A DNA stretch of 64,000 nucleotides from Escherichia coli (GTDB lineage: Bacteria; Pseudomonadota; Gammaproteobacteria; Enterobacterales; Enterobacteriaceae). Numbering within the stretch: the first letter of the stretch is position 1; each line of letters opens with the position of its first letter. Positions 23,288 through 26,200 of the stretch are shown one piece after another. The stretch lies in assembly GCF_003790525.1 (NCBI RefSeq), contig NZ_CP033635.1. One strand, written 5' to 3'. The position numbers are program-made.

Positions 23288-26200
23288 TTATCGGGCTTTT
23301 CTTTAAGGGTAGTCATTCGCTCCGCCTGGTGGGCGACAAAGCGTGCGGTGGATCACGTTTATTAACCTGCCAAAAAATATAACGCACTAATATCAATGGA
23401 ATTTATAAAAATACGGATTTCGTGTTGTTTTTCATTTTCAGAACATTCAATCCTGCTCTCGCCGCAATCATGATATGCCATTCCTGATCTGGGTAATAGG
23501 CACAGGCTATCTTATTGATAGTTTATATTCATGTAATTGATTGATTCCTATCAAAAAGCGTATTTCCCTGTTTTTTATGATGGCTTTGTCTCGCAGAGAC
23601 GTTTGCAGCATTCTGGAAAATTTTCTGGGTCACAATAACTCACCACCGTGAGGGAAGAATAATGAAAATGGTCTCACGTATTACCGCGATCGGCCTGGCT
23701 GGCGTCGCGATTTGCTATTTAGGGTTATCTGGTTATGTGTGGTACCACGATAATAAACGCAGTAAGCAGGCCGATGTTCAGGCATCTGCTGTCAGTGAAA
23801 ATAATCAGGTTTTAGGTTTTCTTCGCGAAAAAGGATGCGACTATTGCCATACGCCTTCGGCAGAATTACCCGCCTATTATTATATTCCTGGCGCGAAACA
23901 GTTGATGGATTACGACATTAAGCTTGGATATAAATCTTTTAACCTCGAGGCCGTGCGTGCGGCTCTGCTGGCTGATAAACCCGTTTCGCAAAGCGATCTG
24001 AATAAGATTGAATGGGTAATGCAGTATGAAACCATGCCACCAACGCGTTATACCGCGCTACACTGGGCGGGTAAGGTGAGTGATGAAGAGCGGGCGGAAA
24101 TACTCGCCTGGATTGCAAAACAACGCGCAGAATATTACGCCAGTAATGATACTGCTCCGGAGCATCGCAATGAACCGGTGCAGCCCATCCCGCAAAAACT
24201 GCCTACCGATGCGCAAAAAGTGGCGTTGGGCTTTGCGCTGTATCACGATCCCCGTTTATCGGCTGATAGCACCATTTCATGCGCTCATTGCCATGCGTTG
24301 AATGCGGGGGGCGTCGATGGCAGAAAAACATCGATTGGTGTTGGTGGCGCAGTTGGGCCGATTAACGCGCCGACGGTATTTAACTCAGTATTTAACGTTG
24401 AGCAGTTCTGGGATGGTCGTGCGGCAACATTGCAGGATCAGGCGGGTGGACCGCCGTTGAACCCGATTGAAATGGCGTCGAAATCCTGGGACGAAATTAT
24501 TGCTAAGCTGGAAAAAGATCCGCAGCTTAAAGCGCAGTTCCTCGAAGTCTATCCGCAAGGTTTCAGCGGTGAAAATATTACTGATGCCATTGCTGAATTT
24601 GAAAAAACATTAATTACGCCGGATTCCCCATTTGATAAATGGTTGCGTGGAGATGAGAATGCGCTGACGGCACAACAGAAAAAAGGCTATCAATTATTTA
24701 AAGATAATAAATGTGCAACTTGTCATGGTGGTATTATTCTCGGCGGACGTTCCTTCGAACCGTTGGGGCTGAAAAAAGACTTTAACTTTGGTGAAATTAC
24801 GGCGGCGGATATTGGTCGTATGAATGTGACTAAAGAAGAGCGCGATAAATTGCGTCAGAAAGTACCCGGTTTACGTAACGTTGCACTAACGGCACCGTAC
24901 TTCCATCGCGGTGATGTGCCGACGCTGGACGGGGCGGTGAAACTGATGTTGCGCTATCAGGTAGGCAAAGAGCTGCCGCAGGAGGATGTGGATGATATCG
25001 TAGCTTTCCTGCACAGTCTGAACGGGGTTTACACGCCGTATATGCAGGATAAACAATAATTAATTTAATCGCCCGAACAGGAATGTTTGGGCGATTTTTA
25101 TTACGATAATAAAGTCTGTTTTTAATATTATCATGTTAAATGTTTATATTATAAAAAGTCGTTTTTCTGCTTAGGATTTTGTTATTTAAATTAAGCCTGT
25201 AATACCTTGCTTCCATTGCGGATAAATCCTACTTTTTTATTGCCTTCAAATAAATTTAAGGAGTTCGAAATGGACCAGAAGCTGTTAACGGATTTCCGCT
25301 CAGAACTACTCGATTCACGTTTTGGCGCAAAGGCCATTTCTACTATCGCGGAGTCAAAACGATTTCCGCTGCACGAAATGCGAGATGATGTTGCATTTCA
25401 GATTATCAATGATGAATTATATCTTGATGGCAACGCTCGTCAGAACCTGGCCACTTTCTGCCAGACCTGGGACGACGAAAACGTCCATAAATTGATGGAT
25501 TTGTCGATCAATAAAAACTGGATCGACAAAGAAGAATATCCGCAATCTGCAGCCATCGACCTGCGTTGCGTAAACATGGTTGCCGATCTGTGGCATGCGC
25601 CTGCACCGAAAAATGGTCAGGCCGTTGGCACCAACACCATTGGTTCTTCCGAGGCCTGTATGCTCGGCGGGATGGCGATGAAATGGCGTTGGCGCAAGCG
25701 TATGGAAGCCGCAGGTAAGCCGACCAACAAACCAAACCTGGTGTGCGGTCCGGTACAAATCTGCTGGCATAAATTCGCCCGCTACTGGGATGTGGAGCTG
25801 CGTGAGATCCCTATGCGCCCCGGTCAGTTGTTTATGGACCCGAAACGCATGATTGAAGCCTGCGACGAAAACACCATCGGCGTGGTGCCGACTTTTGGCG
25901 TGACCTACACCGGTAACTATGAGTTCCCACAGCCGCTGCACGATGCGCTGGATAAATTCCAGGCCGACACCGGTATCGACATCGACATGCACATCGACGC
26001 TGCCAGCGGTGGCTTCCTGGCACCGTTCGTCGCCCCGGATATCGTCTGGGACTTCCGCCTGCCGCGTGTGAAATCGATCAGTGCTTCAGGCCATAAATTC
26101 GGTCTGGCTCCGCTGGGCTGCGGCTGGGTTATCTGGCGTGATGAAGAAGCGCTGCCGCAGGAACTGGTGTTCAACGTTGACTATCTGGGTGGTCAGATTG

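What the first reader, a model, noticed from the sequence alone, without database searches (positions are those of the whole stretch)
23541..23554. Consensus FNR site upstream of ccp
ttgattcctatcaa is a perfect TTGAT-N4-ATCAA match about 108 bp upstream of the ccp start, consistent with anaerobic activation of cytochrome c peroxidase.
Basis: partly seen in the sequence, partly recalled or inferred. Interest (0 to 1): 0.2.

Follow-up and report, generated by a model that had tools for sequence, protein, structure and literature searches.

The report
Known FNR site of ccp promoter
This is the already-described binding site through which the oxygen sensor FNR, working with the peroxide sensor OxyR, switches on the E. 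coli cytochrome c peroxidase gene when oxygen is absent; it is real and strongly conserved, but ordinary.

Summary
TTGATTCCTATCAA lies at 23541-23554, and its 3' end is 108 bp before the ccp (yhjA) ATG at 23662 in an E. coli window. Only two perfect TTGAT-N4-ATCAA sites occur in 64 kb, against 0.06 expected.

Partridge, Poole and Green (2007) reported yhjA regulation by FNR and OxyR (cited), and ChIP-qPCR showed FNR binding at yhjA/treF in vivo.

My own evidence:
- **Conservation:** the site sits upstream of ccp in about ten enterobacterial genera. The half-sites are kept while the N4 spacer and flanks diverge.
- **Promoter geometry:** a nAnnAT -10 element follows 21-23 nt after the site. This puts the site centre at about -40.5 to -42.5, which is class II geometry, and there is no -35.
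- **OxyR motif:** an OxyR-type motif (23496-23532) ends 8 bp upstream at nearly fixed spacing.
- **Target gene:** the site stays with ccp where treF is not the neighbour.

One caveat: the site had no FNR ChIP-seq peak in anaerobic glucose medium and lies under H-NS/IHF signal. Its use is therefore probably conditional.

Novelty: already known. Interest: low.

The parts
23541..23554 (.). FNR-binding site TTGATTCCTATCAA (palindromic half-sites TTGAT/ATCAA, centre 23547.5)
   Evidence: Perfect consensus. Identical in a K-12 derivative and in the 5 other fetched E. coli strains (of 5,422 genomes matching the region), while neighbouring bases are polymorphic. Half-sites are conserved upstream of ccp in about 10 genera while the N4 spacer varies. 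Listed as a predicted FNR site for yhjA/treF, PatSer score 14.16, in Myers 2013 Table S6.
23496..23532 (+). OxyR-type site ATAGgcacaggCTATcttattgATAGtttatatTCAT (14 of 16 specified positions)
   Evidence: It is the only match with up to 3 mismatches in the window, against 0.09 expected; 8 of 100 shuffles gave at least one match. The same motif ends exactly 8 bp before the FNR site in nearly all genera examined, and 19 bp before it (one extra helical turn) in Providencia burhodogranariea. OxyR activation of yhjA is in the literature.
23576..23581 (+). Predicted -10 hexamer TATGAT of the ccp promoter
   Evidence: 5/6 match to TATAAT, starting 21 nt after the FNR site. A hexamer of form nAnnAT lies 21-23 nt after the site in all 22 orthologous promoters examined. 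No -35: the hexamers at 16-18 bp spacing match TTGACA at 1-2 of 6 positions (read), and the sigma-70 scan found no complete promoter on the + strand.
23587..23589 (+). Predicted transcription start (inferred, not measured here)
   Evidence: Lies 6-8 nt after the -10 hexamer, which puts the FNR centre at -39.5 to -41.5. This is an inference from the geometry. I could not read the mapped start in Partridge et al. 2007.
23650..23655 (+). Shine-Dalgarno GAGGGA of ccp
   Evidence: Read directly from the sequence, 6 nt before the ATG.
23662..25059 (+). ccp (yhjA) coding sequence, 465 aa; the regulated gene
   Evidence: ORF; annotated ccp, cytochrome c peroxidase, in RefSeq E. coli genomes.

Best explanation
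The 14-bp palindrome is the FNR operator of the E. coli ccp (yhjA) promoter. Without oxygen, dimeric [4Fe-4S]-FNR binds it. The site replaces the missing -35 element, centred about 40.5 bp upstream of the start, so FNR recruits RNA polymerase as a class II activator. An OxyR site lies directly upstream (centre about -74). The promoter therefore behaves as an AND gate, expressed when oxygen is absent and hydrogen peroxide is present. This fits the enzyme's role of using H2O2 as a respiratory electron acceptor under anoxia. What is shown: the site, its conservation and its geometry relative to the -10 element (my analyses), and FNR/OxyR dependence and in vivo FNR binding (literature). What is inferred: the exact start site and the contacts between FNR, OxyR and polymerase.
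For: (1) The consensus match is perfect and rare in the window. (2) The locus is E. coli treF-ccp-gadA, and the promoter region is present in 5,422 of 5,426 complete genomes at 95% identity or more. The site is invariant in sampled strains, including a K-12 derivative, while bases between the site and the -10 element vary. (3) Phylogenetic footprint: sites of 8-10/10 lie 93-128 bp upstream of the ccp ATG (about -165 in Yersinia, measured from the start of the tblastn match, which begins at query residue 11; -233 in P. heimbachae) in Escherichia, Citrobacter, Pluralibacter, Providencia, Trabulsiella, Entomohabitans, Hafnia, Enterobacillus, Buttiauxella and Yersinia. N4 spacers differ (TCCT, ACTT, AATT, GAAT, AAAA, ACCC, AGTG, AAGG) and the flanks are unalignable. 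There are 26 perfect sites in the upstream zone against 0 in 164 kb of control DNA from the same loci. (4) A nAnnAT -10 hexamer lies 21-23 nt downstream in all 22 promoters, and no -35 is present. (5) The OxyR motif sits at fixed spacing upstream. (6) The module stays with ccp where the upstream neighbour is not treF. (7) Literature: FNR is an activator of yhjA under anaerobiosis and OxyR is an activator; double regulation is summarised; ChIP-qPCR was positive; under hypoxia OxyR induces Ccp.
Against: In Myers et al. 2013 (Table S6) this site is among the predicted sites with no FNR ChIP-seq peak in anaerobic glucose minimal medium. It overlaps H-NS and IHF ChIP-chip enrichment, near the edge of a 5.4-kb extended H-NS region. 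yhjA is absent from their table of FNR-dependent operons (no hit in file 8). FNR occupancy is therefore not constitutive under anoxia. I did not see a mapped start site, because the primary paper is not held, so the class II assignment rests on a predicted -10 element. Conservation among related species is partly shared descent, although flank divergence argues against that as the whole explanation.
Confidence: 0.93

Rival explanations
1. The site mainly controls the divergent gene treF (cytoplasmic trehalase) rather than ccp.
For: DISTILLER predicted treF as a high-confidence FNR target from co-expression plus motif, and ChIP-qPCR was positive. treF appears among genes with O2-dependent expression only in the hns/stpA mutant (Myers Table S11).
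Against: The site centre is 290 bp upstream of the treF ATG (23257), with no class I/II geometry that I can identify. ChIP cannot separate two genes that share one 404-bp intergenic region. In 8 genera where the neighbour is another gene (SDR dehydrogenase, MFS transporter, 6-phospho-beta-glucosidase, TonB receptor), the OxyR-FNR-(-10) module is still attached to ccp. A secondary effect on treF in Escherichia and Citrobacter is not excluded.
Confidence: 0.04
2. The site is a silent, NAP-occluded consensus match with no regulatory role in vivo.
For: There was no FNR ChIP-seq peak in anaerobic glucose minimal medium, and the site overlaps H-NS and IHF enrichment. The intergenic region is AT-rich (40% GC against 49% for the window).
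Against: Half-sites are strongly conserved in position across genera while everything around them diverges. ChIP-qPCR was positive in another study. FNR-dependent expression has been published. The absence of a peak is more simply explained by conditional occupancy, for example a need for oxidised OxyR or relief of H-NS.
Confidence: 0.02
3. The palindrome is a CRP site or a chance match.
For: CRP and FNR sites are related 22-bp palindromes, and the region is AT-rich.
Against: The core is TTGAT/ATCAA, not GTGA/TCAC. Against the CRP core TGTGA-N6-TCACA it matches only 7/10 (read). Established knowledge is that the T versus G at this position discriminates FNR from CRP. Chance expectation is 0.06 per window, and conservation excludes chance.
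Confidence: 0.01

Closest known systems
E. coli K-12 yhjA (ccp) promoter, FNR- and OxyR-regulated (Partridge, Poole & Green 2007, Microbiology 153:1499)
   Same: It is the same locus and the same site. A K-12 derivative carries the identical TTGATTCCTATCAA, OxyR motif and TATGAT. Myers 2013 lists its reverse complement TTGATAGGAATCAA for yhjA/treF.
   Different: Nothing in the site itself. This window comes from a non-K-12 strain (it carries the chu heme locus), with one base difference between the site and the -10 element.
Canonical class II FNR-activated promoters (e.g. narG, nirB, ydhY; sites listed in Myers 2013 Table S6)
   Same: Consensus TTGAT-N4-ATCAA overlapping the -35 position, a recognisable -10 element and no -35. 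Spacing to the -10 element is equivalent to a centre near -41.5.
   Different: Those sites gave FNR ChIP-seq peaks in anaerobic glucose medium, and this one did not. The co-activator here is OxyR rather than NarL/NarP.
Other promoters listed as co-regulated by FNR and OxyR, e.g. hcp-hcr
   Same: hcp has an FNR site with a ChIP-seq peak, and OxyR is listed as an activator of hcp-hcr. The logic of combining an anoxia signal with an oxidant or nitrosative signal is the same.
   Different: I did not compare the promoter architectures. The fixed 8-bp OxyR-FNR spacing documented here was examined only for ccp.

Membership tests
FNR operator (CRP/FNR-family site TTGAT-N4-ATCAA) | 14-bp inverted repeat matching both TTGAT and ATCAA half-sites with a 4-bp spacer | tested here: met
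   10/10 match at 23541-23554.
FNR operator (CRP/FNR-family site TTGAT-N4-ATCAA) | T (not G) at the first core position, which distinguishes FNR sites (TTGA) from CRP sites (GTGA) | tested here: met
   Both half-sites read TTGA/TCAA. The match to the CRP core is only 7/10. The discrimination rule comes from established knowledge.
FNR operator (CRP/FNR-family site TTGAT-N4-ATCAA) | Purifying selection on the half-sites but not on the spacer or flanks in orthologous promoters | tested here: met
   In 17 anchored sequences from about 10 genera, the columns conserved at 75% or more are TTGAT.....TCAA plus the OxyR tetranucleotide elements (ATAG/CTAT) and five scattered single columns. 26 perfect sites lie in the upstream zone against 0 in 164 kb of control DNA.
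FNR operator (CRP/FNR-family site TTGAT-N4-ATCAA) | Physical binding by FNR | not testable with these tools
   Literature only: ChIP-qPCR positive (PMC2690998); no ChIP-seq peak in anaerobic glucose minimal medium (PMC3688515 Table S6).
Class II FNR-dependent sigma-70 promoter | Site centre about 29-30 bp upstream of the first base of a -10 hexamer (centre near -41.5) | tested here: met
   Centre 23547.5 to TATGAT start 23576 is 28.5 bp, giving -40.5. The gap is 21-23 nt in all 22 orthologues, giving -40.5 to -42.5.
Class II FNR-dependent sigma-70 promoter | Weak or absent -35 hexamer (activator dependence) | tested here: met
   Hexamers at 16-18 bp spacing match TTGACA at 1-2 of 6 positions (read). 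No + strand sigma-70 promoter was found by the scan.
Class II FNR-dependent sigma-70 promoter | Experimentally mapped transcription start consistent with that spacing | not testable with these tools
   The primary paper (PMID 17464064) is not held, and no start-site data were accessible.
Class II FNR-dependent sigma-70 promoter | FNR-dependent anaerobic activation of the downstream gene | not testable with these tools
   Literature only: 'FNR yhjA Activator Anaerobiosis' (PMC4207228 Table 4); summary in PMC10301912.
OxyR-binding site | Four tetranucleotide elements ATAG/CTAT/ATAG/CTAT with N7 spacers | tested here: met
   14/16 match at 23496-23532, the only match in the window with up to 3 mismatches. 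12-15/16 matches at the same register in the other genera.
OxyR-binding site | OxyR-dependent induction by H2O2 | not testable with these tools
   Literature only: OxyR activator of yhjA/ccp.

The most novel reading that the evidence does not exclude
The OxyR and FNR sites form a rigid composite element. The gap is 8 bp edge to edge, with one exception at 19 bp (one extra helical turn), and it is kept across about ten enterobacterial genera even though the surrounding sequence has diverged. This would imply face-of-helix-dependent cooperation in which FNR occupancy in vivo needs oxidised OxyR, or OxyR-driven displacement of H-NS/IHF. That would explain why a perfect consensus site is 'silent' in ChIP-seq of unstressed anaerobic cells. 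I have not seen it described, but the primary paper was not readable here.
Probability: 0.3. Interest if true: 0.3.

Novelty: already known. Interest (0 to 1): 0.08.

Why it matters
This promoter restricts cytochrome c peroxidase to anoxic, peroxide-containing niches, for example near the gut epithelium, where H2O2 can serve as a respiratory oxidant. Confirming the site adds nothing new for E. coli. The cross-genus footprint does add two points. The OxyR-FNR-(-10) module is an ancestral, position-locked unit of ccp regulation in Enterobacterales. The site also belongs to ccp rather than treF, a distinction that ChIP-based studies could not make. In addition, it is a clear case of a perfect, conserved and functional operator that standard ChIP-seq reports as unbound.

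Tried and rejected
- **Primary papers not readable.** I tried Partridge et al. 2007 (PMID 17464064), Khademian & Imlay 2017 (PMID 28696311 / PMC5565418) and Khademian & Imlay 2020 (PMC8043972). None is held. The mapped start site and the reporter data are therefore cited only second-hand.
- **Literature searches.** Searches for yhjA with 'class II' or 'ChIP-exo' gave no text with promoter coordinates.
- **Sigma-70 scan.** It found no + strand promoter in the intergenic region. This is expected for an activator-dependent promoter, so I located the -10 element by its conserved spacing instead.
- **5' UTR folding.** Folding the predicted UTR (23588-23664) gave an unremarkable energy (z = -1.4). 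Small hairpins at the predicted 5' end occur in many genera but not all, and they are not individually significant. I dropped this as evidence.
- **treF as the target.** Rejected as the main role after finding that the module stays with ccp in genomes lacking the treF neighbour.
- **CRP site and chance match.** Both rejected on sequence and conservation.

Full report
**What is there**

The window is E. coli DNA. The 443 bp around the finding match 5,422 of 5,426 complete E. coli genomes at 95% identity or more, and are 100% identical to strain AR_0013. The feature under the match is annotated ccp, cytochrome c peroxidase. The local gene order is treF (21608-23257, minus strand), a 404-bp intergenic region, ccp/yhjA (23662-25059, plus strand) and then gadA.

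At 23541-23554 the sequence reads TTGATTCCTATCAA. The pattern occurs twice in the 64-kb window, against 0.06 expected from dinucleotide-preserving shuffles.

**Is it more than a consensus match?**

A perfect match does not prove function. Myers et al. 2013 list perfect FNR consensus sites inside genes that FNR does not bind (Table S6). I therefore tested position and conservation.

One scan of species-representative genomes with the Ccp protein returned 41 loci. In Escherichia, Citrobacter, Pluralibacter, Providencia, Trabulsiella, Entomohabitans, Hafnia, Enterobacillus, Buttiauxella and Yersinia, a site of 8-10/10 lies at a similar distance upstream of ccp. The usual distance is 93-128 bp. 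It is larger in P. heimbachae (-233) and in Yersinia (about -165, measured from the start of the protein match, which begins at query residue 11).

When the sequences are anchored on the site, the half-sites are kept while the 4-bp spacer changes (TCCT, TCTT, ACTT, AATT, GAAT, AAAA, ACCC, AGTG, AAGG). The flanks are unalignable between genera.

Across the 41 loci there are 26 perfect sites in the 200-bp upstream zone and none in the remaining 164 kb. For matches of 9/10 or better the rates are 3.9 versus 0.10 per kb.

Within E. coli, the site is identical in a K-12 derivative and in the five other strains I fetched, chosen from a list spread from best to weakest match. Polymorphisms fall between the site and the -10 element and in the N7 spacer of the OxyR motif.

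More distant homologues lack the site: Saezia, the Lachnospiraceae MAGs, Chloracidobacterium, and a second Entomohabitans copy.

**Promoter anatomy**

- **-10 element.** TATGAT lies at 23576-23581, 21 nt after the site. In all 22 orthologous promoters examined, a hexamer of form nAnnAT (TATGAT, TATTAT, TATCAT, CATTAT, CATCAT, CATAAT, CATGAT, GATAAT, CACTAT, CACCAT) lies 21-23 nt after the site.
- **Site position.** With the -10 element at -12 to -7, the FNR centre falls at -40.5 in Escherichia and most Citrobacter, and at -41.5 to -42.5 elsewhere. This is class II geometry.
- **No -35.** At the -35 position the DNA reads AAAAAG (1/6 match to TTGACA). The sigma-70 scan found no complete promoter on the plus strand. 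Both are as expected for an activator-dependent promoter.
- **Start site.** The predicted start (about 23587-23589) is an inference. I could not read the paper that mapped it.

**The second input**

Directly upstream, 23496-23532 reads ATAG-N7-CTAT-N7-ATAG-N7-TCAT. This matches 14 of the 16 specified positions of the OxyR motif and is the only match in the window with up to 3 mismatches. The expectation was 0.09, and 8 of 100 shuffles gave at least one match.

The motif is conserved in the same genera and ends exactly 8 bp before the FNR site. In Providencia burhodogranariea the gap is 19 bp, one helical turn more. In Y. pestis the 8-bp register ties with another register in my scoring. With the predicted start, the OxyR centre is near -74.

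**Which gene does the site serve?**

treF is the divergent neighbour only in Escherichia and Citrobacter (tblastn). Elsewhere the upstream gene differs: a short-chain dehydrogenase, an MFS transporter, a 6-phospho-beta-glucosidase, a glycosidase-like lipoprotein or a TonB-dependent receptor, judged by reading the translations. The OxyR-FNR-(-10) module remains attached to ccp in all of them, so the site belongs to ccp.

This matters because the DISTILLER study counted treF and yhjA as two separate validated FNR targets by ChIP-qPCR, and that method cannot resolve a shared intergenic region.

**What is already known**

The regulation is published. [quoted passage not shown] A curation paper extracted from that literature the entries 'FNR - yhjA - Activator - Anaerobiosis' and 'OxyR - yhjA - Activator'. 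A 2023 paper summarises the double regulation and the idea that expression is limited to low-oxygen, peroxide-containing conditions. A review states that under hypoxic conditions OxyR induces Ccp, which lets the respiratory chain use H2O2 as terminal oxidant.

**A caveat**

In Myers et al. 2013 this exact site has no FNR ChIP-seq peak in anaerobic glucose minimal medium. It is listed as TTGATAGGAATCAA, yhjA/treF, PatSer score 14.16, and is marked as overlapping H-NS and IHF ChIP-chip enrichment. It lies near the edge of a 5.4-kb extended anaerobic H-NS region, 3661953-3667384. yhjA is not in their table of FNR-dependent operons.

In their aerobic/anaerobic table yhjA has a ratio of 0.50. Judging from marker genes in the same table (nik operon 0.03-0.06, lldP 8.3, dctA 4.0), I read the ratio as aerobic over anaerobic, meaning about two-fold higher anaerobic expression. 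The sheet name suggests the opposite direction, so I give this little weight.

The intergenic region is AT-rich (40% GC against 49% for the window), which fits H-NS binding. The simplest reconciliation with the positive ChIP-qPCR and the published FNR dependence is conditional occupancy: FNR occupies the site productively only when oxidised OxyR is also bound, or when nucleoid-protein masking is relieved. This is inference. The conserved rigid OxyR-FNR spacing is consistent with it.

**Rivals**

- **treF as the main target.** Unlikely, given the 290-bp distance and the cross-genus linkage to ccp.
- **A silent site with no role.** Contradicted by the conservation and the literature.
- **A CRP site.** The core is TTGA, not GTGA, and matches the CRP core at only 7/10.
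- **Chance.** Excluded.

**Verdict**

The site is the known class II FNR operator of the FNR/OxyR co-dependent ccp promoter. Novelty: already known. Interest: low. The most novel reading not excluded by my evidence is that the fixed-phase OxyR-FNR composite enforces cooperative occupancy, which would explain the site's 'silent' ChIP-seq status.

Noticed in passing
window 42954-42967: This is the only other perfect FNR consensus in the window, TTGATTTTTATCAA. It lies in the chuT/chuA intergenic region, with its centre about 115 bp upstream of the chuT start (about 42846). chuT heads chuTWXY, which includes chuW/hutW, the anaerobic radical-SAM heme-degrading enzyme. A candidate promoter (TTGAAT, a 16-18 bp spacer, then TATATA/TATAAC) and a Fur-box-like AATGATAATCATGATCATT lie downstream, which would put the site near -70, a class I-like position. 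The site is identical in chu alleles only 92-94% identical overall, but the whole proximal 130 bp is conserved there. The papers in the held library that mention chuT, FNR and anaerobic discuss the FnrS sRNA acting on chuS, not FNR protein acting on chuT. It is a plausible, possibly undescribed, anaerobic input to heme utilisation.
   Followed up: partly
window 23588-23600: A perfect palindrome GTCTCgcaGAGAC sits exactly at the predicted ccp transcription start. In Citrobacter it is kept as GTCY-N5-RGAC, with a two-sided change in C. amalonaticus (GTCCatataGGAC). Several other genera have a different small hairpin at the same place, but most Providencia do not. It could be a 5'-terminal mRNA stem-loop or an operator for an unknown dimeric protein. 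The folding statistics are not significant.
   Followed up: partly
window 23496-23532 and loci L001-L039: The OxyR-type motif keeps an exact 8-bp gap to the FNR site across about ten genera. The one clear exception (L017, Providencia burhodogranariea) has a 19-bp gap, one helical turn more. This suggests that the phase between the two activators is under selection.
   Followed up: yes
window 34329-34342 and 34393-34406: Two 9/10 FNR-like sites lie 64 bp apart (GTGATAGGTATCAA and TTGATTTTTATCAT). By coordinate arithmetic, and by sequence (reverse complement ATGATAAAAATCAA), the second corresponds to the gadE-upstream site that did have an FNR ChIP-seq peak in Myers 2013 Table S6. So in that dataset a weaker site about 11 kb away is bound while the perfect ccp site is not.
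   Followed up: no
window 23640-23653: A hairpin CTCAC-CACC-GTGAG lies in the ccp 5' UTR. Its 3' arm overlaps the first bases of the Shine-Dalgarno GAGGGA. The terminator scan picked it up on the minus strand, and it appears in the minimum-free-energy fold. It may modulate translation initiation. One Escherichia sp. sequence carries a G-to-A change that breaks a pair.
   Followed up: no
window 41932-45512: The window carries the chu heme-uptake locus (chuT, chuW/hutW, chuA), which is present in only 2,236 of 5,426 complete E. coli genomes. The source strain is therefore not K-12-like, although the ccp promoter is essentially identical to that of K-12.
   Followed up: partly
L024 (Entomohabitans teleogrylli, second contig): This species has two ccp homologues at 75% identity to the query. 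One (L023) has the OxyR motif and an 8/10 FNR site at the usual position. The other (L024) has only a poor 8/10 match at -240. This may be a paralogue with different regulation, or an assembly duplicate.
   Followed up: no
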